From positions 1-64,000 of the IMG/VR virus record IMGVR_UViG_3300020036_009452: DNA of 64,000 nucleotides; one strand, written 5' to 3'. A program made the translations under genes and the position numbers. The first letter of the stretch is position 1. Every line of letters starts with the position of its first letter. Positions 16,304 to 32,807 of this stretch are shown here, in pieces. The notes beneath the pieces were generated by a model, which ran no database searches, was not told where the DNA came from, and was given only the letters and a program-made list of their open reading frames with translations. The stretch comes from a virus (lineage: Duplodnaviria; Caudoviricetes).

Positions 16304-16600
16304 ATGAATAAATCAATTGCTGCCTACGTTAGAGATCGTTGCTGAGTACTGCGACGTAAATCTGATAAGCAGGCACTGAACGTGTCGTATACGGTAGAGG
16401 GCTTGAAATGGTCTACAAATAAACTAGGAAAGGCCCTCTTTTTTAAAAAAGCCATCATCACAAATGGCAAGATAGTTGGGGATTTATCCCCTTCTCCAGA
16501 AGTGTACTATGAACTGTTTGATCCAATCGAGCATTACAATCTTACGCTTCAACGCGCCGAACTGAGGTGTCTAGATAAAGCTTTACGGCTTTGCTACTAG
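16304..16600 (+). CDS. Hypothetical protein, first clearly TGA-recoded gene (1 TGA)
   Basis: ATG 16304 directly after the previous stop; in-frame TGA 16343-45 joins it to ORF 16382-16600. Confidence 0.6.
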
Positions 16601-16656
16601 GCAGGCAGCTAATCCGGGACCTCGAAGACCGGTTTGTTTACATTAAATAATAGATT

Positions 16657-17268
16657 TTGAAAACTTTTTTATACAGGCTGGGGGCAATTGTAGTTGCCGT
16701 GACATTCACAGCCATGTTGCTGACTACATCTAAACTCGAGACAAAAGTCGAGCGGATGGGCGTAGAGCAACACCAACTGAATCAAACGAACGACTCACTC
16801 AAAAATCGACTTGATACCCTACAGGGAGAAGTTGAACGATTGCGTGAAACCCATCCTTATCAATCACGTAAGTGAAAGAATAGGAAAACGGGACTTTGCA
16901 CCCAGGGAAACTTCTTCGGATTTATATTGTACACACCGGTAGATACTACAATAAGCGACGACTTTGCTGTTGTGCTGTCTACATATCAAGGCCCGAAGGC
17001 TAAGGTAAACAGTGTGCGCAGGCATTCTAATCCTGATTCTCGCCACTACCATGGGAAAGCTATTGATTTAGCTTGAGATGATGAATTAATTGCCTTTCTT
17101 ATTTCCCAAGAAGGTAAAAGTTGGCTACAAGCGCATGGGATTACTCTCTACATAGAGGGTTTGCCAGGAAGTCGTAGGGTAAGGGAGTATCTCCAAAACC
17201 CTGAGGCGGCACCTTATTGTTTCTTCAATTCGGAAGCAACTGGCGATCACATACACTTAAATATCTAA
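16657..17268 (+). CDS. Membrane-anchored peptidase M15-family endolysin (2 TGA=Trp)
   Basis: TM segment and coiled coil, TGA 16873-75, then SRHYHGKAIDLA-(TGA 17074-76)-DD...DHIHL Zn-peptidase motifs; TAA 17266-68. Confidence 0.8.
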
Positions 17269-17275
17269 GGGGTTA

Positions 17276-17295
17276 GGGGGAAGTAAAATTCCCCC
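17276..17295 (+). terminator. Hairpin after the endolysin gene
   Basis: GGGGGAA-GTAAAA-TTCCCCC. Confidence 0.5.
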
Positions 17296-17308
17296 TCTCT
17301 TCTAATTT

Positions 17309-17593
17309 ATGCAACACATATTTGAGTTACTACTATCCGCTGCAGCGGGAGCTGTAGCTACAAAGAGCATTGACTTTCTCCCAGCATTAATGAGATTGTT
17401 TCAAGGTCTCCAAGAAGCTCCAGTTGTACGCAGCAATGCCTCTACCCCCACAGAACCAACCAACAGTTTGCAAACAGAACCGACCTCATTTAAACGAACA
17501 AAAAATGGATACACTGCAACCTTCACATTTGTGGAAGGTCCATCACGGGGTACTGACCCCATGCACAGGTCTTGAGATAACAAAAGCCCTTAG
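17309..17593 (+). CDS. Small hypothetical protein
   Basis: TCTAA leader; TGA 17573-75 or TAG 17591-93; overlaps the polA start. Confidence 0.45.
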
Positions 17594-19397
17594 AGATTGA
17601 GAGGGGCCAATTGCCCTTGATACAGAGACTTCTGGAGGATTGAACAATATCCTTGACAGAAAAGTCATTCTATTACAGTTTGGAAACGCAGAAACACAAT
17701 ACTTGGTAGATACAAGACACAAAGACCCAACAAGGCTTTTGCAGGTTCTGGCGGATAAAATCATTATCGGCCACAATTTGAAATTTGACTACCAAGTCAT
17801 AAAGGACAATTACGGGGTAGAACTTGTACGTGTTTTCGACACAATGCTCGCTACTCAGATTCTTGAGTGTGGAAAGAGTCCTCTATCTAAAAAAGGTTGG
17901 TTTGGTCTTGAGGGTGTGTGCAATCGCTATTTAGATGTACATCTTTATGGAGCACAAGGAACACTGTTTAGACCCCCTATAACGAAAGAAATCCGTAAAT
18001 CCTTCCTAAATGTAGGAAACGATCCCTTCTCTATTTCTCAGTTATTATATGCTGCACTAGACGTGGAAGCCGTTTTTCGGCTCTACAAACCGTTACGACT
18101 TAAGTTAGCTTCTTCCGAACTAGAAGCAACGAACTCCCTAGAGGGAGAATTCATGTTCGTACTAGCAGATATGGAATTGGCGGGTATTTGGTTAAACCAA
18201 ACTCAATGGCTGGCTAACTATAGGGAGACTTTGCGGACAACGGAAACTCTCCGTAACGAACTCTTCGCAGTCCATGCAATAAATTGGGATAGCTGGCAAC
18301 AGGTTCTCCCCGTAATGAAGTCCTATAATGTTGACGTGTCAATCATAGATAAGGAAACTGGGGATATAAAGGAATCTGTTTCCAGGCAGGTACTGCAAAA
18401 ACAGGTTGGGGTCAATCCTATTCTGAGCACGTATCTTACCTACAAACAATTCAAAAAGGAAACTTCAACGTATGGTGAAGGATTCCTAAAGTATGTAAAC
18501 CCAATTTCTGGACGGGTGCACAGCTCATTTATGCAAATTATGCGTACTGGCCGCACATCGTCCACTAATCCAAACATCCAGAATATCAAAAGAGGAGCGG
18601 TATACCGTTCGGCTTTCCAAGCTGATGAGGGAGACGTATTTGTAGCTGCCGATTTTTCCAATATTGAGGCTAGAATTCTGGCGGATAAATGTGGAGATCC
18701 AGCTTTCAGAGCGGCTTTTGAAAATGACGGAGATTATCACCTGGCCACCGCTAGAATAGCTTTTGATAATCCGCTCCTTACAAAGGATTCAGAGGAGCGT
18801 TCATTAGCGAAGAACATAAACTTCTCAATTGCCTATGGAGGAGGAGCTGGTACATTATACGAAAAATACCGCGTGCCCTTAAGAAGAGGTAGAGAATTGA
18901 TCGATAGGGTATATAAGGGTTTTCCCAAGTTGAGAGAGTACTTCGACAAACAAGGGGCATTCGCTAAGGAGCATGGTTATGTGATAGCTAATGAAATTAC
19001 AAAGCGTCGAAGCTATATCCCCTTCTTTGAAGAATATAAAAATTATAAAGCACACATTGAGTATTTTCGTGCTAGAGGCTGAGACCCACACCCACACATT
19101 GTGGCAAAGTTTCGCGTTATGGACGGGAAGATTCAAAGGTGGGCACAAAATATTCCTATTCAAGCTACCGCCGCAGATGTTGCCAAGCAAGCTGGTATTA
19201 ACTTGAGGCATCGTTCAAAAAAGATTGGGTTTCTACTTGTTCTATTTGTACACGATGAGTATGTGTTGCAATGTGCTGATTGGAAGAAAAAAGCAACCAG
19301 TTTGGCTCTAGAAAGATCTTGCGCGGAAGCTGTGGATAAATTTCTAACCATAAAGGTCCCCGCGGAGGCCTCTATTTCTCCGCACTGATCGAAATAA
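17505..19397 (+). CDS. polA: Family A DNA polymerase with 3'-5' exonuclease (630 aa, 3 TGA=Trp)
   Basis: IALDTET, GHNLKFD, YAALDV, TGRTSS.PNIQNI, DFSNIEARILA, AKNINFSIAYGG, NIPIQATAAD, VHDE; TGA at 17598, 19080, 19386; C-terminus ISPH(W)SK-TAA directly abuts the next ATG. Confidence 0.95.
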
Positions 19398-20495
19398 ATG
19401 TCGATAGAAGCAACAGTTCTTTATCTCCTAGCTTTAGCCCTGCTAGGTGTTGTGGCGTATTTTGGCTACAAAAAGGCTATGAAAGACCCAGAAAATGCAG
19501 GCCTTGAGCCCGGTGTAGTTCTGGTGAAGTCTTTCATCAAGTATTCATTAACTTACTTTATCGTATTTCAGGCTTCCGCTATGTTGGCAGAAGCAGCTTT
19601 ACTTGGGTCTGTACAGGAGAAAAACATGAACGTAGCTGCTAGAATGGGCAGTCACATGGCAATGGCACTTGTTGGTGCTTTTGCTGCATTTGCAATGACA
19701 AAGTATTTTGGTAGTTTTATTTCAGTTCTTATTACAAGACGGTCACCGGGCGTATGGTTAGGTTTGGTGACTTCATCTCTTTGTCTGAGTGTGGTGAGTT
19801 TGGCTTTAACAGTCGGTTCGCCTATTTACAACCTGTTCGCTATGGCAAATTCCTTACACCAAGGAGCTGAATTAGAAACTTGGTGGGCAAGCATAGCCCG
19901 CAGCCAAAAGTACTATGAGTATGTTCTAGCGGTAAATAACTTTCCGCCCGACTATGCGCCATTCGATAGTCTACACTCAGGTGTCGTAACATCTATAGGC
20001 TTAACAGCCTTCCACCTACTTCTCACTCTCTGGGAGATACTGACGGTTCTTATGATTAGCCTGACGAATCAGAGTATCAATCATGCTATCCTAGGTAATC
20101 TCTTCGACCTTGTACCTCCTGCGCAAGCAGATAAAGATAAGGATAAAGGTGGAAAAGATAAGGACAAGGACAAGGACAAAGACAAGGATAAGGATAAAGA
20201 TAAGGATGCGAAGAAAGCATCTGATCTCTTGCAGAAAATGTTACTGTTTGCTGGTCTCAGTGAAGAGCATGCTAAACAGTTCAGCGATAAGCTGCTACCG
20301 TATATTCACGACAGGGATTATAGCGCTGCACAAACTAAACGCTTAGCCGAAGCGATGGATTTGATGCATCGTATGGAGCTTCCCACAGCGAAAAACGAGG
20401 CCACCAAGAAGAAGTTGCGCGAAGAATTGGCTGAGAAGGTTCTAACCTGGACCGATAAGGCCTATACCCTGCCTGGGCCATCAAAAAAGGCGTAG
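19398..20495 (+). CDS. Multi-pass membrane protein with Asp-Lys repeat
   Basis: About five hydrophobic helices, then a (DK)n tract. Confidence 0.75.
   Translation: MSIEATVLYLLALALLGVVAYFGYKKAMKDPENAGLEPGVVLVKSFIKYSLTYFIVFQASAMLAEAALLGSVQEKNMNVAARMGSHMAMALVGAFAAFAMTKYFGSFISVLITRRSPGVWLGLVTSSLCLSVVSLALTVGSPIYNLFAMANSLHQGAELETWWASIARSQKYYEYVLAVNNFPPDYAPFDSLHSGVVTSIGLTAFHLLLTLWEILTVLMISLTNQSINHAILGNLFDLVPPAQADKDKDKGGKDKDKDKDKDKDKDKDKDAKKASDLLQKMLLFAGLSEEHAKQFSDKLLPYIHDRDYSAAQTKRLAEAMDLMHRMELPTAKNEATKKKLREELAEKVLTWTDKAYTLPGPSKKA
20130..20207 (+). repeat. (DK)n low-complexity coding repeat
   Basis: GAT/GAC-AAA/AAG codon repeats with synonymous variation. Confidence 0.85.
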
Positions 20496-20527
20496 GCTGG
20501 GAAGGATTAAGTTGTGAGTGGTGTGGA

Positions 20528-21205
20528 TTGACCGAAAACGTCGAATTGATCCACACCTACTCACGGCCCCCTTGGTTGCAAGGACACAAGAATCATTGTC
20601 GAACTTGTGGAGAGTTAAAATGGCTCGGCCAAGTAGACAGGGGAGAAATGATCTGTGAGACTTGTTATCAACTCAAGTACGAGAAAGGTGTGCGGTTAAT
20701 GTATGCCTGTAAGGGGTGCATAAAACACATTCCTCTCAGCCTCTGTTGTAGTGAATGCGAAAAGACAGTTACTGCATATTCTTCTGGTACTCTCCTTTGT
20801 GAAGATTGTGAGCTAAAACAGCGATTTACTATTGTTTCAACAAAAGTCACAAATTGTGTCTCTTGTGGAACATTAGACCATGTAAACGCAGAGGGAATTT
20901 GTGTAAACTGTTACATTAGTAAGAATAAACCAAAGCGGTGTCGAGGGTGTTCTAAACCGACAATCCTTGGGACAGCTTATTGTGACGAGTGTATAACACT
21001 CAGGAGAGAAGCCACAGGAAATACTGCTAAACGCAAACAATGTTTTGGGTGCAGTGCAGACTTTTTCCCTGGTTCAACACGTGAGACGTTCTGCTACACA
21101 TGCAGACGAAATTTAGAATTAGGGATATGCACCAATTGTAGTATTGAAACTGCTACGCAGGATCAACACGGTTGGTGTGCAAAATGTGCGTCTAATGAAC
21201 GATAA
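20528..21205 (+). CDS. Cys-rich multi zinc-ribbon protein
   Basis: More than 12 CxxC pairs in 225 aa; TTG start uncertain. Confidence 0.7.
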   Translation: MTENVELIHTYSRPPWLQGHKNHCRTCGELKWLGQVDRGEMICETCYQLKYEKGVRLMYACKGCIKHIPLSLCCSECEKTVTAYSSGTLLCEDCELKQRFTIVSTKVTNCVSCGTLDHVNAEGICVNCYISKNKPKRCRGCSKPTILGTAYCDECITLRREATGNTAKRKQCFGCSADFFPGSTRETFCYTCRRNLELGICTNCSIETATQDQHGWCAKCASNER

Positions 21206-22388
21206 GAGAACCGAAATGCAAGAGGAGGCTCTCAATGCTTGGCTTAGCGCCGGCAAATGAGGGACCATCCTGATTTATACAGGAGGAGGCAAGACACGGT
21301 GCGGGGTAGCCGCCTACAAGGAAATGGGAACTCCCAAAACTCTTGTGGTTACCCCCCGTGTGCCCATCCTTAATCAGTGAAAGGAAGTATTAGGTGTTGC
21401 GCCTAATATTACGTACATGTGCCTGAAAAGTGCGTATCTACATGCTGGAGATTATGATCTAGTTATTGTGGATGAAGTGCACAGAGCCTTATCTAAGGAG
21501 TATAGGCGCATGTTTAGGAGTGTTACAACAAAGGCCTTAATGTGCCTAACAGCAACACTCCCAGAGAACGAGGAATACGTAACGTTTCTAAATTCCATCG
21601 CTCCAGTTGTTTATGAAAAGAACCTAGTTGAGGCTATGGAAACAGGCATGGCCCCAAAGGTTACTATATATAATTTACCAGTTCCATTGAGTCGAGAGAT
21701 CGCTGGTAAATACAAAGTTTTTGATGGAAAATTTACCCAAAATCTGATAAAGCTTACACGCTTTAGAGCAGAGCGCCCAGAACTTCGGGTGTACAGTTCA
21801 GTCTTTGATTTAGCCCAAGCTGCTACGAAACGTCCTTTTGATAAGGAAGTTCAAGCCGCATGCACGGGCTATTGGAGCAGCATGACATTACGTAAGTACT
21901 TAGTTTATTCTAATCCAGCCAAGATAAAATTCATAGCTGATATTATAAATAAGTATGATAGTAGTTACAAATGAATTGTATTTACAAAAACGACAGATTT
22001 TGCGACAAAAATTGCGAAACATCTACCTAATAGTGCGGTTTATCATTCAAAGCAGCGCAAGGACGAAAGAGAACAAACCCTTATAGATTTTGAAAAAGGG
22101 AAGTTTCGCATTCTTGTTGCTGTAGACGCACTAAATGAAGGTTTAAATATATCAAGAGTTTTCGGAGCCATTTGTGCTTCGGGGGTTTCAACAGCTTTAA
22201 CCAATTTTCAACAATTGGGTAGGATTAATCGTCCAGAAGAGGGCAAGAGACCTATATTCTTCAACTTGTACACAGAAAATACTGTGGAACGAGCTTGGAT
22301 TGATAAAAAATTAAAAAATCTAGACTCAACATGGCTAAAAACTTTGGCCGATTTAAACCTACCTCCGCTCGCCTTGCACAGTATCTAA
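21195..22388 (+). CDS. Superfamily 2 DEAD/DEAH-box helicase (397 aa, 3 TGA=Trp)
   Basis: QEEALNAW, TGGGKT, LNQ(W), IVDEVH, LTAT, K(W)IVFT, LNEGLNI, QQLGRINR; TGA at 21258, 21378, 21972. Confidence 0.92.
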
Positions 22389-23512
22389 GGCTGCATGGAG
22401 CGTTGTTACCATCGGACGCTGACTCTTTTAAACAGGGTGCCATGTATGAGGACCATTGTGTCTTTTGTCGTAGCGCCCACGATCACAACTATGTCTTCAT
22501 AATGTCAAGTACCGGAGGCAACACAGAGCCTGTGCGCGTTGAAGGACTATATAGTTGTGACGCTTGTGATAATCAGATACAAGCTCAACTGTACACGCGG
22601 CCACATCAAGGCGCTCAAGATCTTTTTGGAGAGATTGATGCTTTCATTTATGAAGGGCGTTTCCCAGCTCTTACTCATTTACACTACGAACATCTTGATC
22701 CAACGGTAGAAACCAGTCCGCCCCAACACATTAGATGTATTTTCTGCAAGGGACCGACCCGCGACGCAACAGATCCATATGTTGATTTATCTAACACAAA
22801 GCCTTTCTACGAAACTATTGAAGTTCCAATGGGATGCCATCCAGAAGGATTAGATGGGGGAAAGGTCAGGGTCTGCTTAGCCTGCGTAACAAAAATTAGT
22901 AATTCTAATGGGTTTAAGACTCTGGATGAGCATTTGGATTCTTTTTGCACATATACAGAGTGCGCCAGATGTGGTGCAAGCTACCGCATAATCCATCCAG
23001 AAATTGATATGCGCGTGGCCGAAGGATCGGTAGATCAGCATATGTGTGGGCCCTGTACTTACAATCATCTGGTAAGCTCAGAAGTTGTTACTTACGCAGG
23101 ACTAACACTCAGTGACATTTATAAAGGATGCCGAGTATTTGATGACCGCTCTAGAACCTACTGGGAAGAAAATATAACCATAAAAAGGTTTAGCGAGCAA
23201 CACTGTGCTTTTTGTAAGGAAGAAATTATTATTGATATCACGATCCTTCCAGAGTACATAGTAGATAAGTTCCTAACCCCAGGTGGTGATTTTATATGTG
23301 GATTATGCGGCAGACGCTCTGTCCCGCCTTATCTTGTAATTTCCCAAGGGAGTTACAAGATTCGAGTCTACATAGAAAAAAGTGACAAGATGAGCTTAAT
23401 AACTTGGGGGCCAAATGATCGCTTAATAAGTGAGCAATTGAATCTCTCCAGTGATGCAGCCGCAAAACAATTACTAAACCTTCTCCCTGAACCGGGGTTA
23501 TTCAATGGGTAA
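22331..23512 (+). CDS. Cys-rich multi zinc-finger protein (393 aa)
   Basis: About eight CxxC pairs. Confidence 0.7.
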   Translation: MAKNFGRFKPTSARLAQYLRLHGALLPSDADSFKQGAMYEDHCVFCRSAHDHNYVFIMSSTGGNTEPVRVEGLYSCDACDNQIQAQLYTRPHQGAQDLFGEIDAFIYEGRFPALTHLHYEHLDPTVETSPPQHIRCIFCKGPTRDATDPYVDLSNTKPFYETIEVPMGCHPEGLDGGKVRVCLACVTKISNSNGFKTLDEHLDSFCTYTECARCGASYRIIHPEIDMRVAEGSVDQHMCGPCTYNHLVSSEVVTYAGLTLSDIYKGCRVFDDRSRTYWEENITIKRFSEQHCAFCKEEIIIDITILPEYIVDKFLTPGGDFICGLCGRRSVPPYLVISQGSYKIRVYIEKSDKMSLITWGPNDRLISEQLNLSSDAAAKQLLNLLPEPGLFNG

Positions 23513-23744: not shown

Positions 23745-23979
23745 ACGATTTATATGCGAAATACACATAGCCTCTCAAAACAGAGGAGTGGGTAAATTAT
23801 CGCTTTTTCGTACCCGGAAGCGTAAAGGTGAAACAGTCCAACGTTTTGGCGCGCATATTCGAGCTCAAACATCAGGAGGCACTTTTCATAAGCGGCATTC
23901 TTTTGGTCCTTTTGATACGGTGTTTGAAGTTCTTTCCTCCGCTCTACTCTTCTGGCACTCTAATCCTCGAGCTAAATAA
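23725..23979 (+). CDS. Hypothetical protein (84 aa)
   Basis: Overlapping operon-like arrangement. Confidence 0.55.
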   Translation: MPTENSKRFICEIHIASQNRGVGKLSLFRTRKRKGETVQRFGAHIRAQTSGGTFHKRHSFGPFDTVFEVLSSALLFWHSNPRAK

Positions 23980-23980
23980 T

Positions 23981-24241
23981 ATGTTAGAATTAATTTACCT
24001 AGGTTACGAGAAACCATGGCCGGGAGAGCCGGCAGGGGATAAGCAAATTCGCCTTATTCTCGCCGTACATCTCCAAACTGGAGAAGAACCCTTCCATGCA
24101 GTACTTACTGAGCAAGGAGGAGAAGTGCATGATTCATCTGAGATAGTAGAACAGCAAAAATCCTACAGTCTGGTCCTACTTTTAAAGAATATGATTCGGT
24201 TTATATACCGAAATTATCAAAATGTTGAATTAGTGCGATGA
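23981..24241 (+). CDS. Hypothetical protein (86 aa); TGA end ambiguous
   Basis: ATG 23981 after TAA; ends in an ATGA overlap inside the recoded block. Confidence 0.55.
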   Translation: MLELIYLGYEKPWPGEPAGDKQIRLILAVHLQTGEEPFHAVLTEQGGEVHDSSEIVEQQKSYSLVLLLKNMIRFIYRNYQNVELVR

Positions 24242-24744
24242 AGTATAAAGTCCTCCTTAGCCTACCCCACAACTATACAAAACTGTCGTTTTGGAAAGAC
24301 CCTGTACGTAATCTCTATTTCTTCGAGATACACTACATGCGTGGTGGCACCTCCTTTTTGCTAATACGTTCAATCACGTACGAAGATTATTATCATTGTC
24401 TGTGGGATGGAACGTCTGTAGTAGCTGACGTGGAAGACAAATTCACAAATGTCTCCCTTGCACCCCAATTTGCAGTGCATCCGCCTACTTACTCTAAACA
24501 TGTATTAAACTATGTCTCAGTTACCATTAACTCTCAGTATTTTCAAGCACTTGAATACAGAACAGATATCTCTAGACTTGTACGCAACTATGTGATTCCT
24601 AAACACGGGGGAGCTGACTTTTCAAGATATTACAAAAAGCTCGATAACAAGCGAAATAATCTCCCGAAATCTTTTGACCGAAGAAATGCAGTTGTCCAGT
24701 GCTGGGCAAATTTTTCTTTCAAATTGCCTGTCCCCCCTTCCTAA
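24238..24744 (+). CDS. Hypothetical protein (168 aa)
   Basis: ORF track; TAA stop. Confidence 0.65.
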   Translation: MKYKVLLSLPHNYTKLSFWKDPVRNLYFFEIHYMRGGTSFLLIRSITYEDYYHCLWDGTSVVADVEDKFTNVSLAPQFAVHPPTYSKHVLNYVSVTINSQYFQALEYRTDISRLVRNYVIPKHGGADFSRYYKKLDNKRNNLPKSFDRRNAVVQCWANFSFKLPVPPS

Positions 24745-25072
24745 CGAAACTATTCCGTACACGGCGGGCTTTGAAGCCTTCTGGAAAACTTTTCCTGCGT
24801 CCGACAAATGAAATAGGTTTGGGGAAACCCGGAAGCTAAGACTCAATAAGAAAGAAACTTTTGCCCAGTATCTAGCAGCCTTAGAAAAAGGAGTAACAGA
24901 ACAGACCTTATTACACGCATTACAGACAGAGGTAAAGAACAAGCGGGAATCTCCCGCATTATCTAATCCTTTTAAATATATGAAGGCTAGTGTTAATTGG
25001 CTTAAAGATGAAGAGTATCTTAATGTATCATATGAAACAGTAGTATTAGAACCAGACAGCGGACTATTATAA
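24686..25072 (+). CDS. Putative replication-initiation/helicase-loader-like protein (1 TGA=Trp), missed by the ORF track
   Basis: FEAFWKTFPASDK(W)NRFGETRKLRLNK...YMKASVNWL; TGA 24809-11; TAATG overlap with dnaB. Confidence 0.65.
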
Positions 25073-26070
25073 TGGAGTATAGACATATTGATTATGGTAT
25101 AGATTCAACTATAGAATATATACGAAAACGAAAAAGCGGGGAAATAAAATCTCTAAAGACTTCATTTAAAAAGCTTAATAACGCTTTAATGGGAGGAATA
25201 GACTGAGGAAGAATAATGACAATAGGCGGGCAATCAGGTTCTGGTAAATCTACAATACTAGAACAATTCAAGAAGGATTTCATAGACTTGAATGACCCAG
25301 ACTTTGAGATCCTATCATTTGAGTTTGAGATGCTAATCGAGGATCAATTATCTAGGTATTTAGCGTCACTAGGTAAGTATACTATTAAGGATATTTACTC
25401 AGCGACTAGTCCTTTAGATGATGCCGCTTTTGAGGAAGTGCAGGAAGCATTGAATAAGAGAAGGGGAGTTCCAGTATACTATGTAGATAATCCTGGTACC
25501 CCATATGAAATAAAAGAGACTATTTTGGAATTTATTCAAAATAGAAAGCTTTTGGAGCGTAACTTAGGGTTGGTAATAACTATCGACCACATTCTTTTAA
25601 CAAAGGGAAGAAGTGGGGAGAATGAGAAAGAAATCATTGACACATTAATGGATGTGTTAAATGAAATCAAAAAATACTGCGCACACATAGGTCTGCGCTG
25701 TCTCATACTGGGATTGAGCCAGTTAAATAGGGATATTGAAAGAATGGAACGAGTTGAGAATCCACTCTATCATTTCCCCAACAGGAACGACTTGTTTGCT
25801 GCTTCGTCTGTTTATCACACTTCCGACTATGTATTAATATCCCATAGACCGGCAACAGTGAATGGAATGAAGCGAATCATAAATGGTGTAGAGAAGGGAT
25901 ATGGACCGCCTAGAACGGAATTCCCGGACGGCTGGCCGCTTGTCTACCCAAAAGATCCAACTCGCGATATGGTGTATTGGCATTTGATAAAAGAGCGGTT
26001 TGGAAAGCCGGGAGTAATTGCCCTAGCAGAGGATTTTAAACATTATAAATTAGAAGAAGTAACAGTTTAA
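25072..26070 (+). CDS. dnaB: DnaB-like replicative helicase (332 aa, 1 TGA=Trp)
   Basis: LMGGID(W)GRIMTIGGQSGSGKST, FEFEM, ITIDH, LSQLNR, IKERFG; TGA 25204-06. Confidence 0.92.
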
Positions 26071-26071
26071 T

Positions 26072-26731
26072 ATGAACTTAGTACAAATTACAGGATTACC
26101 CGCAACAGGGAAAACAACTGGGGCAAGATTCTTGAACCCAGATACTACCTACTATATTGATGCCGATGGAAAAGGCTTGTCTTGAAAGGGGTGGAAAAAC
26201 AGTTATAATGTAGAGAAGAAAAACTATGCAAAAACTGCTGACCCAACCACCATATATAAGGTAGTAAAGGCCGTAAGTGAGACTCGGCCAGACATCAACT
26301 GCATTGTAATTGATACTATCAATGCTATGATGACAACGGAAGAAATGGCAATCCTCGAGTCCCCTTCTAGGGATAAATGGGCGGATTTAGCCGTGGACGT
26401 ATGAAATTTATATAAACTTATCAGGGAAATAAAACGCGATGATTTTGTTGTGTTTGTCTTAGCCCACTGTGAAACGTATGATGTAAATGGTATTACTCAT
26501 TATCGTACGATGGTAAACGGAAAGAAATTGTCTAAAATCAATTTGAATGCTTTTCTTTCTTACAACCTTTACACAAAAGTGGGAGCTGGTCCCGATGGGA
26601 ATTTTTCATATGATCTCATTACTAAAAGTGATGGGACGAATGAAGCCCGTTCAGTGATGGACGTGTTTCCTAATAAAATTGAGAATAATTTAGAAAATGT
26701 GAGAACTGCTGTAATCGCAGCAGAAAATTAA
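26072..26731 (+). CDS. AAA-family ATPase (Sak4-like recombination ATPase; 2 TGA=Trp)
   Basis: GLPATGKTT, GLS(W)KGW, IVIDT, LAVDV(W); TGA at 26183, 26402. Confidence 0.8.
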
Positions 26732-26752: not shown

Positions 26753-27346
26753 ATGATACAAGCAAAGTTATTTCTGGATAGTGGTACATCAACCGGCGGG
26801 TCTAAGATTCCAGTTGGAATTCACCAAGGCACGGTAGTGTTTAGCGGGTTGACCACAGACCAGAACTGAACTGACATTCTCTTCACCGAACCAACCACGG
26901 GAAGAACAATTCACAAAAGATTATTCGCGCCAACAGGCAATCGACCGAAGGAAGGAGAGACTGTCCTGGACGCAAAGAATAGGGAACAGAGCAATAGGTT
27001 AGGACAATTGTCCAACCTGCTACTAGCCATAGTGGGATCAGAGGTAGTAGAGACTTTTGAAGCCTCAGATTATACAGAGTTTGTGGCGAAAGCCTCGGCA
27101 CTGTTGAACCAGTATAAAAACGTACCGGTTAATTTGAAGGTAGTTCCAGACTACAAGGAGAAAATGTATTCCGATCTCCCCGACTTTGGAAGTTACGTGG
27201 AGAAGCATGAGGTCGGAAGTGAAACACGCCTAAAATTTTCGGCGAAAGAAACTGCGGCAATCTCGGAAATGGAGCAAAATATTGCTACGAAGCTGAAAAG
27301 CGGAGAAGGCGGTATGTCGTCAGAGGATCTTCAATCTTTGGTCTAA
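26753..27346 (+). CDS. Putative ssDNA-binding protein (197 aa, 1 TGA=Trp)
   Basis: Follows the Sak4-like ATPase; acidic C-tail SSEDLQSLV; TGA 26867-69. Confidence 0.55.
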
Positions 27347-27459: not shown

Positions 27460-27729
27460 ATGGTAACACTAGATGAATATGTGGTAACCCCAGGCGCACT
27501 AGATGCTCTCCTAAATGCCGAACCCAATATATTAAACACAATAGGCATTGCATGTTACTCAGCCACTTTCACAAATCCGAAGGGTGAGGTTAATCAAATA
27601 AAGCGAGGATACATAGCCTACAATCCTATTTTTTACTTAGAGGTACGTAGTCAAATAGACTGTTTCCTAATCGCACACTTTAAAGCCCAAAAAGTCTTGT
27701 CTGTCACCATTCACCATGATAAAAGCTAG
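27460..27729 (+). CDS. Hypothetical protein (89 aa)
   Basis: Start moved to ATG 27460, downstream of the hairpin. Confidence 0.6.
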   Translation: MVTLDEYVVTPGALDALLNAEPNILNTIGIACYSATFTNPKGEVNQIKRGYIAYNPIFYLEVRSQIDCFLIAHFKAQKVLSVTIHHDKS

Positions 27730-28678
27730 CGAACACACCGGAACCCTAGATAGAGCTCTAACGATCTCTGCATTTGAGTATTACTTACGTGCAGATGTCC
27801 AGATAGGTGGAAAGACTTATCGTAACCCTCTTAGGGATGACAAGAATCCCAGCTGTGCTTTTTGATTGGGGCAGAATGATTTAATCTTCATAGATTTTGC
27901 GACTGGGAAGCGCTATACGATTGTCGAGTTTGTGAAGACCAAATTTGGGCTTAACTACTCAGATGCCGTTGCGCGCATAAGAAAGGACTCGATTTACTTT
28001 AAGTCCAAAGAAATCCAGGTGTCAGATAAAGAAGCTGTCACTTTCACATTTACAGCCCAGAATATGGCAGAAGCCATGCACTACTGGGACAAGTATAAAA
28101 TCCCACAGAACATCGCAGAGAAATACGCATTCTATGTCAAAAATCTCTACAGGAACGAAGTATTTATTGGGAGAAGTAGCAAAACCAATCCAATTTTTGT
28201 ATACAAGTTCCAAAGTGGGCACATGAAGATCTACCGTCCTCTGAGTCCTGATCGGATGAAGAAATGAGGCGGTAATGCAACCGCTGAGGATATTGGTGGA
28301 TTATTTCAGCTACCCAGGAGAGGCAAGCTGCTGTTCATCACTTCATCTATTAAAGATATAATGGTATTAAAACAACATGGGTTTAATGCTATTTGCTTTA
28401 GCGGAGAAGGAACTGGGACAACCGCTGCAACATTTGAAGTGGTACGTCCATATGTCAAAGGGTTGCAAAAGCGATTTGAGCATGTGGTGTTGTTCCTTGA
28501 TGGGGATGAAGCGGGCATAAATTTTACCCGCATACTATCCCAGAAATTACGCGTGAAATCTATTAATCTAGATGCCAAGTGCAAAGACATCTCGGATTAT
28601 CAAAAAATAAACGGTATATATCGTACCAAAAAAATCATAAAGAAAAAGCTAAGCAAATGTTTCAAGTTTCCCGTTTAA
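27716..28678 (+). CDS. DNA primase, DnaG/TOPRIM type (320 aa, 2 TGA=Trp)
   Basis: NPLRDDKNPSCAF(W), FIDF, KIYRP...K(W)GGN, ITSSIKD, GEG, LFLDGDEAG, CKDISD; TGA at 27863, 28265. Confidence 0.9.
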
Positions 28679-29007
28679 ATGTCATCCTTGCGTGCGTGCT
28701 CTCAGCTCTGCTAGCAATGGCCGCCCCAATCATTGTGCATAAAATAGCACAAAATTTAGAGAACACAATTAACGCATCACAGACGCGTTACAAGATTAAC
28801 ATAACAGAATTCGCCAGTGACAGCACAGTAATGACATTCACTACATACATGCAGACCCTGAATCGCCCCGAAGCTGAGAAAGAATTCAAACGGCAATGCT
28901 TTACAGTTTGCGACGAAGTGGAGTGCCCCGATAGCATAATTTTCACGCTTGTAGCGGAAACACCCACGACATTAAATGTCCTTATGGACTCAACCATCCG
29001 AAAGTAA
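28657..29007 (+). CDS. Membrane-anchored hypothetical protein
   Basis: ATG 28657; N-terminal TM segment; TAATG overlap with ung. Confidence 0.6.
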   Translation: MFQVSRLNVILACVLSALLAMAAPIIVHKIAQNLENTINASQTRYKINITEFASDSTVMTFTTYMQTLNRPEAEKEFKRQCFTVCDEVECPDSIIFTLVAETPTTLNVLMDSTIRK

Positions 29008-29705
29008 TGAAGCATGACAATATGATTCCATTTGTGGGAGAATCCTGGTTATTACCTTTAGGAAAGGCTTTCGACTATGTGAAAACAGATGTCATCCCAT
29101 ACCTAAAGGAAGAAAGGGAAAGATTAGAATTAGAAAACCTAGACAATCCGTCAAAGAAAGCTAAGACTATTTATCCCTCTACACTATCCAATGTTTTCAG
29201 GGCTTTCAAAGAAACACCCTATCCAACGGTAAGAGTAGTTATAATTGGGCAAGATCCCTATCACGATGGATCTGCCACCGGCTGCGCATTTGACAATGCA
29301 AAAACTAAGAAACCTTCCCCGTCTTTACGAAACATTCTCAAAGAGATAGGAAAGGAATTTGGGAAATCCGCAGCCGATGACAATGTGTTGAGTTACTTGG
29401 AGCACCTTCCTTCACAGGGGGTGCTCCTCCTTAACACTGCCCTAACAGTTGAAAGCGCCAGTCGTGGGTCACATCTTGAAATCTGGCGTCCATTTACTGA
29501 GGAAGTAATAAAGGCACTAAACAAAACTCCAGACATAGTTTGGGTTTTATGGGGAGGAAAAGCTCATAAATTCAAAGAGCTTATAAATCCAAGACACAAA
29601 ATTGTTATGGGCGCACATCCTTCTCCTTTTTCATACCATCTGTTTAAGGATCAAGGGCACTTTTCTAAAATAAACGTTCATTTAAAAAATAAGATCCGAT
29701 GGTAA
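29007..29705 (+). CDS. ung: Uracil-DNA glycosylase, family 1
   Basis: IIGQDPYH, PSLRNI, QGVLLLN, WGGKA, GAHPSP. Confidence 0.95.
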   Translation: MKHDNMIPFVGESWLLPLGKAFDYVKTDVIPYLKEERERLELENLDNPSKKAKTIYPSTLSNVFRAFKETPYPTVRVVIIGQDPYHDGSATGCAFDNAKTKKPSPSLRNILKEIGKEFGKSAADDNVLSYLEHLPSQGVLLLNTALTVESASRGSHLEIWRPFTEEVIKALNKTPDIVWVLWGGKAHKFKELINPRHKIVMGAHPSPFSYHLFKDQGHFSKINVHLKNKIRW

Positions 29706-30469
29706 TCACAGACGAGGCCACAAGGAAGGCCTTACCAAATCTCCAAGAACTCTTTTTTAACTTAAAGCCAAACGTGTCCGGTGTTTTTAACGACGGCCGT
29801 TTCGCCAAAGAGCATGAAAAGAGTGTTCACATTAACCCCGTAAAAGCTGTAAAGCTGTCAGAAAACAAAGGTGACCTGTTCACAGCGTTGCGCAAAGAAG
29901 GCTATGCAGTTCCCGAATTTGCACCCGCCGAACTTTTTGAAGAAAAAGGAGTGTTCGCCATTGACGTGCTGCAAGAGAAGTTTCCACTGTCTGACCCAGA
30001 CCTTGAAACATTGTTCACTTGCAAGAACAAGATGACGACTATTGAAGACTTGGCCGAGCTGTTGCAGTTGCTGGGAACTGGGATGTCACCTGGCGGTGCC
30101 TTCTTTAATTTACCCAAGGGATACCAGTCTGCAGTTGTTTCAACAATCCCAAACGCCCGAGGCACTAACCTCAACTTGGGCACCACTACCACAAACAATG
30201 GGATTCTATCCCAGACTCTTCCATCGTCCCTGGGGGCAGACCGGCGTGCCGAAGCCCTGGAATTGGCCCGTAATGTAGTCGATGAGTTGAACCTCGATTA
30301 TGCCCACGTCACAATTGCTCTGTGCGAAGAGACGATGCTGGTAATCGATGTTGAAACATCACTGCGACGCCAAGATTGTGTCGCTTTGCGGTCTTACATT
30401 GACCATCTGATGAAGGCCCAAGCAAGAAAAAATAATCCACTGCAAAATGCAAGAAGAACCAAAAGGTAG
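29699..30469 (+). CDS. ATP-grasp-like (RimK-like) protein, possibly degenerate
   Basis: ENKGDLFTALRKEGYAVP, ALELARNVVDELNLDYAHV, LVIDVET. Confidence 0.45.
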   Translation: MVITDEATRKALPNLQELFFNLKPNVSGVFNDGRFAKEHEKSVHINPVKAVKLSENKGDLFTALRKEGYAVPEFAPAELFEEKGVFAIDVLQEKFPLSDPDLETLFTCKNKMTTIEDLAELLQLLGTGMSPGGAFFNLPKGYQSAVVSTIPNARGTNLNLGTTTTNNGILSQTLPSSLGADRRAEALELARNVVDELNLDYAHVTIALCEETMLVIDVETSLRRQDCVALRSYIDHLMKAQARKNNPLQNARRTKR

Positions 30470-30812
30470 AAATCCACTAGAGAATTACGCCTGAGTTAAG
30501 TTACGGTCCGCTGGTATACAGTTTGATTACGAAAGAGTAGTCGAGCTGTTACCAGCGTTTTTGTATAACGGGCTCATTATAGAAAAAGGGAAGAGAGGCT
30601 TATCTGCTAGATCCCCAAACTTTGAAAACATCGAATATAAACCGGACTTTATGGGGGTAGACTGGGTGATAGAAACAAAAGGATTGAGACGCCCAGACTT
30701 TGATTTACGTTGAAAGCTATTTAAACACAAAGTCAAGAGTAAGAAAATGTTATTGCTAATGCCAGGCAATATGAAACAAGTAGATGAATGTATAGAATTA
30801 CTAAAATTATGA
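30447..30812 (+). CDS. Holliday-junction resolvase-like PD-(D/E)xK endonuclease (2 TGA=Trp; end at TGA 30812 or TAG 30920), missed by the ORF track
   Basis: YKPDF...WVIETKG...DFDLR(W)KLFK; TGA at 30492, 30711. Confidence 0.8.
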
Positions 30813-30816
30813 ACTA

Positions 30817-31857
30817 ATGGAAAACGAGATGCCGGATCCTATAGAGCAATACTACAGCTCGCGAAGAATTTCAAACAGCCTGCTAAAAAGCATACAAAAT
30901 CCAAGAGCAGCAAAGCTTAGGCGAGATTTCCCTGAATTATATGAGAAGAATTCAACATCTTTAAAAATAGGCTCAGCAGTTGACTGTTTACTAACTGACC
31001 CAAAAGCCTGGATTAAAAAATTTAGAGTCTTAACGGTAAATAAACCTTACGGCTTCATGGGAAGTTTTGTTGAAGGATTACCAAAAGGTATTACGAAAGA
31101 AAGCCCAAGTGAGGATTTTGAAGGGGCCTATTGGCTCTCAGGATATAAGATGTCACTGGATTGGGTTGTGAATCGTTTTTGAAATACTCCAGATGCAGTT
31201 GAGTACTATTACAGCCAGCAAGATCTTCATGGGATAACTGTTCTCTCTAGAGATGAATATGAGTCCGTATTGAAAGCAGTTGAGCTTATTAACATTTCCC
31301 CATTTACAAAACCATACTTCACTTGTGAGCATAGCTTTGAAGAGTTGATGCACCAAGTTCCTATTTACTTTGAACTAGAGGGGCAGGAATTCAAGGCGCT
31401 TCTCGATGGGATTCGTATAAATCATAAAGACGAAACTATTGAGCCATTTGATTTAAAAACTATAGGCAAGTCAGTATTCGACTTTCCACAAAGTTATGTG
31501 GACTACGGGTACTACACACAGGCTGCCTTGTATGATTATGCAATTAGGACACCAAACAGTCCTGTGTTCGCATACATAGACCAGGGGTACAGGGTTAAAG
31601 ACTTCACTTTTATAGTAGTTGAAACCAAGACCTCATCTACAAATCCGGCAATAATCTACACCACTACCCAGAAAGAGCGTAATTGCGGGTTTGAGGGAGG
31701 TGTAGTTAATAATAAATACTACAAGGGCATTTATCAGCTCCTTGATGATTACTTGTGGCACGAGTCCACAGACCAATGAACCTATCCCAAAGAAGTCTTT
31801 CAAAATTTAGGTAAAATTACATTGGACGTTTTTAAATACAATGAAACACACAATTAG
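30817..31857 (+). CDS. PD-(D/E)xK exonuclease (346 aa, 2 TGA=Trp)
   Basis: ISNSLL, IGSAVD, FKALLDGI, PFDLKT, YYTQAALY; NRF(W) 31180 and DQ(W)TYP 31777. Confidence 0.85.
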
Positions 31858-32392
31858 CGCATTATTTCTCTCCCCGCTCCTTGAACTAAAGAAGGAAGCG
31901 CCGCTAAATATATACGATCCGGCCTACTATTTAGACACTTATTCGGGGGACGTACACAGGGAGGAATACCGCAACTGAACAGCAGGAGATTTCGTTCTTC
32001 TGGAATATAACAGTAATCTGCCAGAGAGCTTGATTGAATACTTTCAAAAGCGCTCGACTTTTGTAGAGATGTACGACCCGCAGAAGGGGAAACGTATCTT
32101 TGTATTCAGACTACCGCAGGAGGTTAAAAAGTCTTACACTGCCAAAGTTTTGGCGGGCAAGTACTCAGAAGCAGACAGACAGGTCGTGGACAAGTATTTT
32201 CCAAACGATCCTAGCCACCCACTTTATGGAAACCGGTTGGTGTTCGATAAGGGTGAACAATGGCGAAACTATTGGGACGCGCGAGGCGTCGTAATACCGG
32301 AAAACGCAGAGGTCTATTCAAAGCCACAGGCAAAAAATGAACAGTATGGATATGTTAAACCAAATTCAGGGGACGATGGCGAACTTGCTTAA
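31841..32392 (+). CDS. Hypothetical protein (183 aa, 1 TGA=Trp)
   Basis: ATG 31841; TGA 31976-78 in frame with ORF 32030-32392. Confidence 0.7.
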
Positions 32393-32807
32393 CGCTGGAG
32401 TTGAAAAGTTAAAGTTCTTAAATCGAATACTGGATCCTGAGCGCATTGCGCAAATTAGCCAAACCCACACTCGAAGGGAAGAGGCTTTGCTAGCCTTAGG
32501 TTTAGAGGAAAAAGACCTCATAGTTATTGAGGAAGAAAAAGCGGGGAAACGCGAATTTATTCGCCGGGCAATTGCTCGTTCTAACCCCTCATTCGGAAGA
32601 TTCCTAACCGAGGCTTATGTACATTACGAGACAACAAAAAACCCAAAAGCGCAATCGCGCATTAGCAAGGTTGACAGCCTTGAAAAGCTACAACAAGAAT
32701 TGAACACATGAAATCCCGAAACGTTAAAAGCGGAGGACCTATTGTCCGCCTGTGTTCAACTCTACTTGCTGCATCGGAAACTGCCCAAAACTAAGCCAGA
32801 ACCTTAA
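32346..32807 (+). CDS. Hypothetical protein (1 probable TGA=Trp)
   Basis: Readthrough of TGA 32709-11 gives NT(W)NPETLKAEDLLSACVQLYLLHRKLPKTKPEP-TAA. Confidence 0.6.

What the first reader, a model, noticed from the sequence alone, without database searches (positions are those of the whole stretch)
16304..32807. DNA replication machinery itself is gated by TGA recoding
PolA (3 TGA), SF2 helicase (3), DnaB (1), primase (2), Sak4-like ATPase (2), SSB (1), resolvase (2) and exonuclease (2) are all truncated under code 11. In PolA the first TGA precedes the DTET exonuclease motif, and in DnaB it precedes Walker A. Recoding in phages is usually described as enriched in late structural and lysis genes. 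Here the switch must precede replication, so a decoding factor must be supplied early or delivered in the virion.
Basis: partly seen in the sequence, partly recalled or inferred. Interest (0 to 1): 0.82.

Follow-up and report, generated by a model that had tools for sequence, protein, structure and literature searches.

The report
Replication genes need a TGA-reading tRNA
A roughly 102-kb crAss-like phage writes its DNA-replication genes, but hardly any of its virion genes, with the stop codon TGA standing for tryptophan, which is the reverse of the published pattern, and the tRNA that probably reads TGA lies just outside the window.

Summary
PolA, SF2 helicase, DnaB-like helicase, Sak4-like ATPase, primase and a PDDEXK exonuclease are each cut by in-frame TGA under code 11. 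The codons are never TAG or TAA. The TGAs align with conserved Trp in relatives and are identical in an independent assembly. The SSB and resolvase labels could not be confirmed. The host is very unlikely to use code 4, because upstream genes on the same strand (270-16302) use TGA as a true stop. A code boundary at about 16304 is conserved in four related phages. The skew is inverted relative to the literature. TGA makes up 33% of Trp codons in the replication block, about 8% in virion genes and 0 of 46 in the three giant genes.

The window holds no suppressor tRNA. An identical 102-kb contig carries a conserved module 2.7 kb beyond the record's end: a 165-aa protein, a tmRNA and a tRNA(UCA). 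The tRNA's extra arm displays a Trp-like UCCAA loop.

Dependence of replication on this tRNA is well supported. Deliberate "gating" and its timing are inferred. This scan reported the same inverted pattern earlier in another, marine crAss-like phage (e1-3540611). I rate it a new variant of a known kind.

The parts
270..16302 (+). Upstream co-directional block written in the standard code. TGA is absent or acts as a stop at 2917-2919, 6799-6801, 8263-8265, 9426-9428 and 14289-14291.
   Evidence: Homologues in relatives end exactly at the TGAs at 6801, 8265 and 9428. The apparent 743-aa frame 8262-10493 corresponds to two separate proteins in relatives. ATGA stop/start overlaps occur at 2919, 8265 and 14291. 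Homologues in G001, G002 and G004 have no TGA inside the aligned regions.
16304..16600 (+). 98-aa ORF, the first gene past the code boundary, with a sense TGA at 16343-16345
   Evidence: A G004 homologue covers aa 1-98. The gene starts 1 nt after the stop of the preceding gene.
16657..17268 (+). 203-aa protein with a transmembrane segment, a coiled coil and M15-like peptidase motifs (lysis type). Sense TGAs at 16873-16875 and 17074-17076.
   Evidence: Homologues in G001-G005 span both TGAs. The H..D and HxH motifs and the N-terminal hydrophobic helix were read from the translation. Only weak spanin and holin PHROGs hits were found.
17424..19397 (+). Family A DNA polymerase with a 3'-5' exonuclease domain. 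Sense TGAs at 17598-17600, 19080-19082 and 19386-19388.
   Evidence: Pfam E 1.7e-66 and 1.5e-25. TGA columns are W in 8/14, 10/20 and 18/18 homologues. Relatives with 47% identity or more also carry 1-3 in-frame TGAs and never TAG or TAA.
19398..20495 (+). 365-aa conserved protein that is TGA-free here and in all four relatives
21144..22388 (+). SF2 helicase with sense TGAs at 21258-21260, 21378-21380 and 21972-21974
   Evidence: ResIII, DEAD and Helicase_C match. Homologues span aa 11-414.
23828..24364 (+). Small ORF whose TGA at 24239-24241 is probably a real stop, in an ATGA overlap with the start of gene 24238-24744
   Evidence: No homologue was found to decide the point.
25072..26070 (+). 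DnaB-like helicase with a sense TGA at 25204-25206, just upstream of Walker A
   Evidence: DnaB_C E 7e-16. The translation was checked. Homologues span aa 1-332.
26072..26731 (+). Sak4-like ATPase with sense TGAs at 26183-26185 and 26402-26404
   Evidence: phrog_2872 E 1.5e-38 over aa 3-215. AAA_24 matches.
26753..27346 (+). 197-aa conserved protein with a sense TGA at 26867-26869.
   Evidence: Full-length homologues occur in G001-G005. There is no Pfam or PHROGs match.
27716..28678 (+). DnaG-type primase with sense TGAs at 27863-27865 and 28265-28267
   Evidence: phrog_12622 E 2.9e-20 over aa 12-277. Toprim_2 matches.
29007..29705 (+). Uracil-DNA glycosylase family protein, TGA-free here; its homologues carry no TGA inside the aligned regions
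   Evidence: UDG E 2e-18..
30817..31857 (+). PDDEXK (exonuclease VIII-like) nuclease with sense TGAs at 31180-31182 and 31777-31779
   Evidence: phrog_412 E 2e-23. Homologues span aa 1-344.
31841..32807 (+). Two overlapping small conserved ORFs (183 and 156 aa), each with one sense TGA (31976-31978 and 32709-32711)
   Evidence: Homologues span both TGAs. No family match was found.
36853..57094 (-). Three giant genes (1509, 1151 and 4087 aa) with 0 TGA among 46 Trp codons. The 4087-aa protein has a DYDLD motif at aa 3904.
57099..64000 (-). Start of the virion gene block, which runs on to TerL beyond the window. TGA is rare: 8 TGA to 88 TGG over the whole block, once two TGAs upstream of the homologous region of one gene are set aside. 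Capsid and portal have none; TerL has 2.
2315..2510 (+). Two tRNA-like elements with abnormal anticodon arms. Neither has a UCA anticodon, so they are not the suppressor.

Best explanation
This is a crAss-like phage of about 102 kb that infects a standard-code host and uses TGA in two ways. In the first 16 kb of the + strand, TGA is a stop or is avoided, so those genes can be translated at once. From position 16304 onward, in the same tightly packed, co-directional gene array, a lysis-type peptidase and the core replisome genes carry TGA at conserved tryptophan positions. These genes are PolA, SF2 helicase, DnaB-like helicase, Sak4-like ATPase, primase and exonuclease. They yield only truncated fragments until a UGA-reading tRNA is present. 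That tRNA is phage-encoded. A tRNA(UCA) with a tRNA-Trp-type acceptor stem, G73 and an encoded CCA lies next to a tmRNA and a conserved 165-aa protein. This module sits in an almost TGA-free block of small genes upstream of the virion genes, about 2.7 kb beyond the end of the record. Once the tRNA accumulates and host TrpRS charges it, the replication proteins are made. The extra arm's UCCAA loop may help that charging. Virion genes are nearly TGA-free and so can be read under either code. The phage tmRNA plausibly frees ribosomes that run off the ends of host messages whose UGA stops are now read through. Four things are shown: TGA means Trp in these genes, TGA means stop upstream, the code boundary and the skew are conserved in relatives, and the tRNA(UCA) module is conserved. 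Five things are inferred: the host's code, charging with Trp, the timing of the tRNA relative to replication, the tmRNA's role, and whether the arrangement is a selected checkpoint.
For: TGA means Trp. The TGAs are not errors. TGA acts as a stop in upstream genes. In the replication block TGA is 19 of 57 Trp codons (33%). It is 8 of 142 in the virion and giant genes (Fisher p 1.4e-6). Codon composition is otherwise equal between the blocks. The same skew appears in G001, G002 and G004 (25-31% against 6-14%). The same boundary at the homologue of 16304/16657 appears in four relatives. In-frame TGA in PolA occurs only in the closest clade. The tRNA(UCA) lies at L118:6985-7083. Its anticodon loop is CUUCAAA. 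Its unconstrained minimum-energy fold is a cloverleaf followed by G73 and CCA. The L118 and L120 overlaps with the record have 0 mismatches over 22.8 kb. A tRNA(UCA) is found downstream of the 165-aa gene in 12 of 14 IMG/VR loci, and a tmRNA in 7 of them. In the alignment of the four long-arm tRNAs, 8 of 15 pairs keep pairing through changes on both sides. The acceptor matches the bacterial Trp identity set of G73, A1-U72, G3-C70, G4-C69 and G5-C68 (PMC9976931). The standard-code relative G005 has neither a tRNA(UCA) nor a tmRNA. In phi14:2, the only crAss-like phage with timed transcriptomics, the whole replicative module is the early class and is transcribed by the injected RNA polymerase. 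In 12 of 14 crAss-like genomes scanned for its middle-promoter motif, the motif lay at least once upstream of a tRNA gene (10.1101/2020.03.07.982082).
Against: There is no expression or timing data for this phage, and no RNA-holding sequencing run was listed. The host is unknown. The tRNA scores only 26.7 bits on the Rfam tRNA-Sec model, ARAGORN does not call it, and its T loop reads UGCAAGU instead of UUC.... A long extra arm with G73 is also the hallmark of serine identity, so Ser insertion is not excluded. Between relatives, TGA and TGG interchange freely: 33 TGA-to-TGG against 23 TGA-to-TGA. Four replication-block genes are TGA-free. TGA also occurs in TerL and a few virion genes. These last three points fit simple tolerance in low-copy proteins as well as they fit a designed gate. 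First TGAs tend to lie early in genes, but not significantly so (p 0.12).
Confidence: 0.7

Rival explanations
1. There is no gate. The suppressor tRNA is present throughout infection. The skew arises because TGG-to-TGA changes drift to moderate frequency wherever inefficient UGA decoding is cheap, that is in low-copy enzymes. They are purged from very long or very abundant virion proteins.
For: TGA is absent from capsid, portal and the three giant genes but present in low-copy TerL and a few other virion genes. TGA and TGG interchange between relatives. Several replication-block genes have no TGA. An earlier agent reached this reading for a gut crAss-like phage (e1-5664472; not checked here).
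Against: The upstream + strand genes are also unlikely to be abundant, yet they lack sense TGA in four relatives and use TGA as a stop. This gives a sharp, conserved boundary at 16304 with no intergenic gap. TGA sites are conserved as TGA more often than independence predicts (OR 3.9, p 3e-4), although that test pools related genomes. Sense TGAs are followed by a purine in 18 of 20 cases, against 19 of 38 for TGG (p 0.0035).
Confidence: 0.3
2. The host itself reads UGA as tryptophan (a native code-4 host), so nothing is gated.
For: In-frame TGA occurs in both gene blocks, and no release factor or TrpRS gene is found in the phage.
Against: TGA terminates at least three upstream genes exactly where homologues end, and it overlaps the next gene's ATG three times. 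TGA is only 29-34% of Trp codons, against the 80-90% reported for code-4 bacteria. The phage carries its own conserved tRNA(UCA). It encodes peptidoglycan hydrolases: Glucosaminidase and an M15-like peptidase. Wall-less Mollicutes would not need these. The capsid, portal and TerL are crAss-like, and crAss-like phages are known from Bacteroidota.
Confidence: 0.04
3. UGA is decoded, but as an amino acid other than tryptophan. The candidates are serine through the long extra arm and G73, glycine as in code 25, or selenocysteine.
For: The tRNA(UCA) has a long extra arm, a long D stem with a 4-nt loop, and G73. It gives a weak hit to the tRNA-Sec model, and ARAGORN labels its relatives SeC(tca). 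[quoted passage not shown]
Against: TGA columns are Trp in 86% of aligned orthologue positions, which is more conserved than the TGG columns at 61%. One TGA column is W in 18 of 18 homologues. Syntenic tRNAs in G004 and L132 are ordinary short-arm tRNAs whose 5' acceptor strand begins AGGGG and that carry G73, like the long-arm form. The tRNA-Sec score of 26.7 bits is far below the family cut-off of 47. The loop of the extra arm conserves UCCAA, the Trp anticodon-loop core.
Confidence: 0.08
4. The TGAs are assembly or sequencing errors, or the genes are decaying pseudogenes.
For: None found.
Against: There are 0 mismatches over 21.4 kb with an independent assembly from another sample, and 0 over 22.8 kb with a third contig. 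Only TGA interrupts frames, never TAG, TAA or a frameshift. The same genes carry TGA in relatives.
Confidence: 0.01

Closest known systems
TGA-to-Trp ('code 4') recoded crAss-like phages with block-wise dual coding (Yutin et al. 2021, PMC7886860; Borges et al., bioRxiv 10.1101/2021.08.26.457843; Mgcod, bioRxiv 10.1101/2022.06.29.495998)
   Same: The genome architecture is crAss-like. In-frame TGA sits at Trp positions. A phage suppressor tRNA(UCA) is present. One part of the genome can be read under both codes. The code change follows gene blocks.
   Different: The polarity is reversed. In those papers the recoded part is the late structural and lysis block, and replication and transcription genes are standard or dual-coded. 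Here the replication block is recoded and the virion block is nearly TGA-free. The boundary also lies inside one strand (at about 16304), not at the strand switch. No tmRNA is mentioned in those papers (0 occurrences).
Lak megaphages and Zeta crAss-like phages with recoded replication genes (Borges et al.; Yutin et al. 2021; Lera phage, PMC12386605)
   Same: Replication enzymes (polymerase, helicase) contain reassigned stop codons, so recoded replisome genes are not new in themselves.
   Different: In those phages the structural genes are recoded as much or more; most TGA genes of Lera are structural. Here capsid, portal and the giant proteins have none.
Cellulophaga phage phi14:2 temporal programme (bioRxiv 10.1101/2020.03.07.982082)
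   Same: There are two opposed gene blocks. The replicative module is on one strand. The giant virion RNA polymerase and capsid modules are on the other.
   Different: phi14:2 uses the standard code. Its timing (replicative module early, transcribed by the virion RNA polymerase) is used here only as an analogy. If it holds, the genes that need the suppressor here belong to the earliest transcription class.
Earlier notes of this scan: a marine crAss-like phage with UGA as Trp only in replication genes (e1-3540611), and two-anticodon suppressor tRNAs of TAG-recoded phages (e1-3777572, e1-5688504)
   Same: The first shows the same inverted module pattern. The others show the same tRNA design, an extra arm displaying the cognate anticodon, here CCA for Trp.
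   Different: They concern other genomes and were not checked by me. The tRNA design here is for UGA and Trp rather than UAG and Gln, and this case adds a linked tmRNA.

Membership tests
Stop-codon-recoded phage, TGA read as Trp | In-frame TGA inside conserved genes, aligned with Trp in homologues | tested here: met
   PolA TGA columns are W in 8/14, 10/20 and 18/18 homologues. TGA aligns to a Trp codon in 56 of 65 orthologue positions. Family matches run across the TGAs.
Stop-codon-recoded phage, TGA read as Trp | Phage-encoded suppressor tRNA with anticodon UCA | tested here: met
   None is in the window or the 89-kb record. One is present on the identical 102-kb contig at L118:6985-7083. 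It has a CUUCAAA loop, a cloverleaf minimum-energy fold, G73 and CCA. It is conserved at the syntenic place in 12 of 14 related loci.
Stop-codon-recoded phage, TGA read as Trp | Host uses the standard code | tested here: inconclusive
   The host is unknown. Indirect support: TGA is a stop in upstream genes, TGA is a minority Trp codon, and the phage has its own tRNA(UCA).
Published block pattern of recoded crAss-like phages | Recoded codons concentrated in late structural and lysis genes, with replication genes standard or dual-coded | tested here: not met
   TGA is 33% of Trp codons in the replication block, against about 8% in virion genes and 0% in the giant genes. Capsid and portal have 0 TGA. 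One lysis-type gene (16657-17268) is recoded.
Crassvirales (crAss-like phages) | crAss-type major capsid protein, portal and large terminase in one block | tested here: met
   Pfam Crass_capsid matches the 498-aa protein. phrog_11589, phrog_6547 and phrog_6681 match with E 6e-60 to 9e-108.
Crassvirales (crAss-like phages) | Giant virion protein with the DFDxD RNA polymerase motif | tested here: inconclusive
   The 4087-aa protein has DYDLD at aa 3904. It was not put to a family search; its two giant neighbours have no PHROGs match. Its fold was not tested.
Phage of a native code-4 host | TGA never terminates genes and is the dominant Trp codon | tested here: not met
   TGA stops occur at 6801, 8265 and 9428, where homologues end. 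TGA is 29-34% of Trp codons, against the 80-90% quoted for code-4 bacteria.
Code 25 (TGA read as Gly) phage of Gracilibacteria or Absconditabacteria | TGA aligned with Gly, and in-frame TGA in about 90% of genes | tested here: not met
   TGA columns are Trp. Most virion genes have no TGA. The 90% figure is.
tRNA-Sec | Score above the Rfam RF01852 cut-off, 8/5 acceptor/T geometry, and use at Sec or Cys positions | tested here: not met
   The score is 26.7 bits against a cut-off of 47. The 7/5 fold with G73-CCA is the minimum-energy structure. The decoded positions are Trp.
tmRNA | Match to Rfam RF00023 above the cut-off, with a tRNA-like domain and a tag reading frame | tested here: met
   L118:6072-6333 scores 76 bits against a cut-off of 47, E 1.6e-28. 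ARAGORN calls a tag frame here and in G002 and G003. SmpB dependence and function were not tested.

The most novel reading that the evidence does not exclude
A clade of crAss-like phages runs the code switch in reverse. A dedicated module of a 165-aa protein, a tmRNA and a tRNA(UCA) is switched on first. It turns UGA into Trp, and this releases a translational lock on the replisome and a lysis enzyme that share transcripts with immediately translatable genes. The tmRNA keeps ribosomes available while host UGA stops are being read through. The suppressor keeps its Trp identity because an extra arm shows TrpRS a mock CCA anticodon loop.
Probability: 0.2. Interest if true: 0.8.

Novelty: new variant of a known kind. 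Interest (0 to 1): 0.6.

Why it matters
The current model of stop-codon recoding in phages says that early and replication genes stay readable by the host, and that recoding holds back late structural and lysis genes. This clade is a clean counter-example. It has a conserved code boundary placed ahead of the replisome genes, and its virion genes are nearly free of recoded codons. So recoding is either used to time replication, or it simply accumulates wherever inefficient decoding is cheap. Both readings change how the phenomenon is interpreted, and they can be told apart by experiment.

There is a practical point as well. Gene callers that assign one code per strand block will mis-annotate such genomes. 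tRNA finders miss the long-arm suppressor: ARAGORN at default settings missed it here.

The linked tmRNA and the Trp-anticodon-like extra arm give concrete, testable ideas about two open questions. One is how a phage copes with genome-wide readthrough in its host. The other is how a suppressor with a changed anticodon still gets the right amino acid.

Tried and rejected
- **tRNA searches of the window and record.** Searches of the window and the 89-kb record (ARAGORN at several settings, Rfam) found only two tRNA-like elements, at 2315-2383 and 2433-2510. Both have abnormal anticodon arms and no UCA anticodon, so neither is the suppressor.
- **Code-change proteins.** Release factor (PF00472) and TrpRS-type synthetase (PF00579) searches of the record gave no match.
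- **Distant PolA homologues.** Alignment to solved PolA structures did not cover the TGA positions, so it was uninformative about the residue.
- **The 165-aa protein next to the tmRNA.** I tested whether it is SmpB or another known factor. There was no Pfam match and no PDB sequence match. The AlphaFold model is all-helical (pLDDT 75.5) and has no Foldseek PDB match at E 0.001 or better. Its function remains unknown.
- **SSB and resolvase labels.** No Pfam or PHROGs support was found.
- **Sequencing runs.** No RNA holder was listed. Only small shares (0.10 or less) appeared in activated-sludge and wastewater runs, and I did not lay reads on them, so I draw no conclusion on habitat or expression.
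- **The 102-kb contig.** It could not be searched whole, because the record is not held. Its last 730 bp were not seen, so terminal repeats were not checked.
- **Promoter and terminator scans.** Scans around the code boundary and the tRNA module gave no more promoter-like sites than shuffled sequence, and no terminator at 16302/16304.
- **Position of TGA within genes.** TGAs tend to sit earlier in genes than TGGs, but the difference is not significant (p 0.12).
- **tmRNA in G004.** None was detected, so the tmRNA is not universal in the clade.

Full report
**What the window is.** The window is bases 1-64000 of an 89,427-bp IMG/VR virus record that CheckV rates 89% complete. Its G+C content is 42%. 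Genes form two opposed blocks. The + strand block runs from about 270 to 36778. The - strand block runs from 36853 to the end of the record. The - block holds three giant genes (1509, 1151 and 4087 aa) followed by virion genes. The virion genes include a crAss-type capsid protein (Pfam Crass_capsid; phrog_11589), a portal and a large terminase. A JGI metagenome contig of 102,154 bp carries the same phage. Its overlaps with the record show 0 mismatches over 22.8 kb. It extends 2,259 bp before the start of the record and 10,468 bp beyond its end. I built a 101,424-bp composite from these pieces for whole-genome counts.

**Checking the observation.** Under code 11 the replication genes fall into pieces. 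Under code 4 they join, and every interruption is TGA.

- PolA at 17424-19397, with 3 TGAs.
- SF2 helicase at 21144-22388, with 3.
- DnaB-like helicase at 25072-26070, with 1.
- Sak4-like ATPase at 26072-26731, with 2.
- Primase at 27716-28678, with 2.
- PDDEXK exonuclease at 30817-31857, with 2.

The 'SSB' (26753-27346) and the 'resolvase' have no family match, so those names stand unverified. The gene at 16657-17268, with 2 TGAs, looks like a membrane-anchored M15-type peptidase, which is a lysis function. One TGA, at 24239-24241, is more likely a real stop in an ATGA overlap with the next gene.

**TGA means Trp, and the TGAs are real.** In an alignment of 21 PolA homologues, the three TGA columns are W in 8/14, 10/20 and 18/18 sequences. 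Several database entries end exactly one residue before the last one, which suggests that they carry the same TGA. In + strand orthologues from four related phages, this phage's TGA codons face a Trp codon in 56 of 65 aligned cases. Its TGG codons do so in 124 of 202. All but one of the TGA-bearing genes in 16304-32807 have full-length homologues spanning the TGA; the exception is 23828-24364, treated above. An independent assembly from another sample is identical over window 7640-29082. These results rule out errors, pseudogenes, and a reading as Gly or Sec.

**The host almost certainly uses the standard code.** In the first 16 kb of the same strand, TGA behaves as a stop. Homologues in relatives end exactly at the TGAs at 6799-6801, 8263-8265 and 9426-9428. 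The apparent 743-aa frame 8262-10493 corresponds to two separate proteins in relatives. At 2919, 8265 and 14291 the TGA overlaps the ATG of the next gene. TGA makes up only about 30% of Trp codons where it is used. The phage also encodes peptidoglycan hydrolases.

**The skew and the boundary.** TGA is 19 of 57 Trp codons in 16304-32807, against 8 of 142 in the virion and giant genes (OR 8.4, p 1.4e-6). It is 0 of 46 in the giant genes, and absent from capsid and portal. Ratios of other A- and G-ending codon pairs are the same in both blocks. Three of four relatives with whole records show the same skew, 25-31% against 6-14%. In-frame TGA in PolA is confined to the closest clade, at 47% identity or more.

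Gene by gene, all four relatives show the same switch point. Homologues of the genes upstream of 16304 have no TGA inside the aligned regions, apart from two cases in one genome. The homologues of 16304/16657 and of the replisome genes do. The boundary lies inside a packed, co-directional array. Gene 16304 starts one base after the previous stop, and no terminator-like site lies there.

**The decoding factor.** The window and the record contain no tRNA(UCA). On the 102-kb contig, about 2.7 kb beyond the end of the record, lies a 99-nt tRNA gene at L118:6985-7083. It sits on the virion-gene strand, in a block of small genes that is almost TGA-free.

- The tRNA has anticodon loop CUUCAAA, a 7-bp acceptor stem beginning AGGGG, discriminator G73 and an encoded CCA.
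- Its unconstrained minimum-energy fold is a cloverleaf with a long extra arm.
- About 650 nt upstream is a tmRNA (76 bits, E 1.6e-28).
- Upstream of that is a conserved 165-aa helical protein of unknown function.

Of 14 IMG/VR loci that encode this protein, 12 have a tRNA(UCA) downstream on the same strand, and 7 also have a tmRNA. Four long-arm versions align with compensatory changes in 8 of 15 pairs. In G004 and L132 the syntenic tRNA is a short-arm tRNA whose 5' acceptor strand begins AGGGG and that carries G73, like the long-arm form. The standard-code relative G005 has neither RNA. No release factor or TrpRS gene was found.

**How it most likely works.** The upstream + strand genes are translated at once under the host's code. 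The replisome genes and the M15-type peptidase cannot be completed until the phage tRNA(UCA) has accumulated and been charged. The virion genes can be read under either code.

In phage phi14:2 the entire replicative module is the early class and is transcribed by the injected RNA polymerase. In 12 of 14 crAss-like genomes scanned for its middle-promoter motif, that motif, which host-type RNA polymerase reads, lay at least once upstream of a tRNA gene. If that holds here, replisome messages would exist before they can be fully translated. I regard the dependence as well supported (0.7) and a selected timing function as open.

The main rival (0.3) is that TGA simply drifts up in low-copy proteins and is purged from abundant or very long ones. 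That fits TerL carrying two TGAs and the free TGA/TGG interchange between relatives. It fits poorly with the sharp, conserved boundary and the TGA stops upstream.

**Two further points on the module.** First, the extra arm of the long-arm tRNAs has stems that differ completely between lineages, but its loop keeps an invariant UCCAA core. In one lineage this forms an exact 5-bp stem with a 7-nt loop reading GUCCAAA, which copies a tRNA-Trp anticodon loop. The anticodon, G73 and the first acceptor pairs are the Trp identity elements (PMC9976931). The arm may therefore present a mock CCA anticodon to TrpRS. Earlier agents of this scan described the analogous design for UAG/Gln suppressors, and I tested it here only at the sequence level. 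Second, none of the recoding papers I read mentions a tmRNA. A plausible role is rescue of ribosomes that read through host UGA stops.

**Comparison with what is known.** TGA-to-Trp recoding, phage suppressor tRNAs and block-wise dual coding in crAss-like phages are established. Recoded replication genes have been seen in Lak and Zeta-group phages. [quoted passage not shown] This clade shows the opposite polarity, with the boundary inside one strand.

This scan has already reported the same inverted pattern in a marine crAss-like phage (e1-3540611) and TGA-rich replisome genes in a gut one (e1-5664464 and e1-5664472). The pattern is therefore recurrent rather than unique. I rate it a new variant of a known kind, with interest 0.6.

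Noticed in passing
L118:6985-7083 (outside the window, about 2.7 kb beyond the end of the record); also L122:5513-5610, L124:8222-8315, L125:7593-7686: The long extra arm of the tRNA(UCA) has stems that covary between lineages, but its loop keeps an invariant UCCAA core (ATTCCAACC, GTCCAAA, CTTCCAAAA). This copies a tRNA-Trp anticodon loop and may be an identity mimic for TrpRS.
   Followed up: partly
L118:6072-6333 and 6366-6898: The phage tmRNA is followed by an HNH-like zinc-ribbon ORF with 4 in-frame TGAs. After that comes an exact repeat of the tmRNA 3' end (AGGGTTCGACTCCCTTCATCTCCA). This looks like an intron or a mobile insertion at the tmRNA T arm.
   Followed up: no
L118:5523-6020: The 165-aa helical protein upstream of the tmRNA is more conserved than PolA (62-67% identity). 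Its invariant W36 is written TGA here; searches show a TGA shared with G002 and G003 in this small-gene block, consistent with that site. It has no known family or fold match.
   Followed up: partly
window 2315-2383 and 2433-2510: Two tRNA-like genes have good acceptor and T arms but abnormal anticodon arms: CCC, then 16 nt, then GGG, with no U33. Relatives carry tRNA-like genes with large insertions at the same spot (G003 38241-38331, G004 4136-4267, L118:8477-8583).
   Followed up: partly
window 88-148: A pistol self-cleaving ribozyme (Rfam RF02679, 63.3 bits against a cut-off of 34.5) lies near the head of the + strand block.
   Followed up: no
window 8262-10493: Two genes (388 and 351 aa) lie in the same frame, separated by TGA plus three codons. 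Once the suppressor is active, readthrough would fuse them into a 743-aa protein.
   Followed up: partly
L118:4879-5241 and record 87561-89165 (- strand): A GroES-like gene (Cpn10, E 6e-5) and a GroEL-like gene (Cpn60_TCP1, 534 aa) lie in the TGA-free block upstream of the terminase.
   Followed up: no
window 16304-32807: Sense TGAs are followed by A (11), G (7), T (2) and C (0). For TGG the counts are A 7, G 12, C 12 and T 7 (purine bias p 0.0035). TGA stops upstream are also mostly followed by A, so the meaning is unclear.
   Followed up: partly
window 19398-20495, 22331-23512, 29007-29705: Three genes inside the recoded block are TGA-free here, and their homologues in the four relatives carry no TGA inside the aligned regions. 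The reason is unknown.
   Followed up: no
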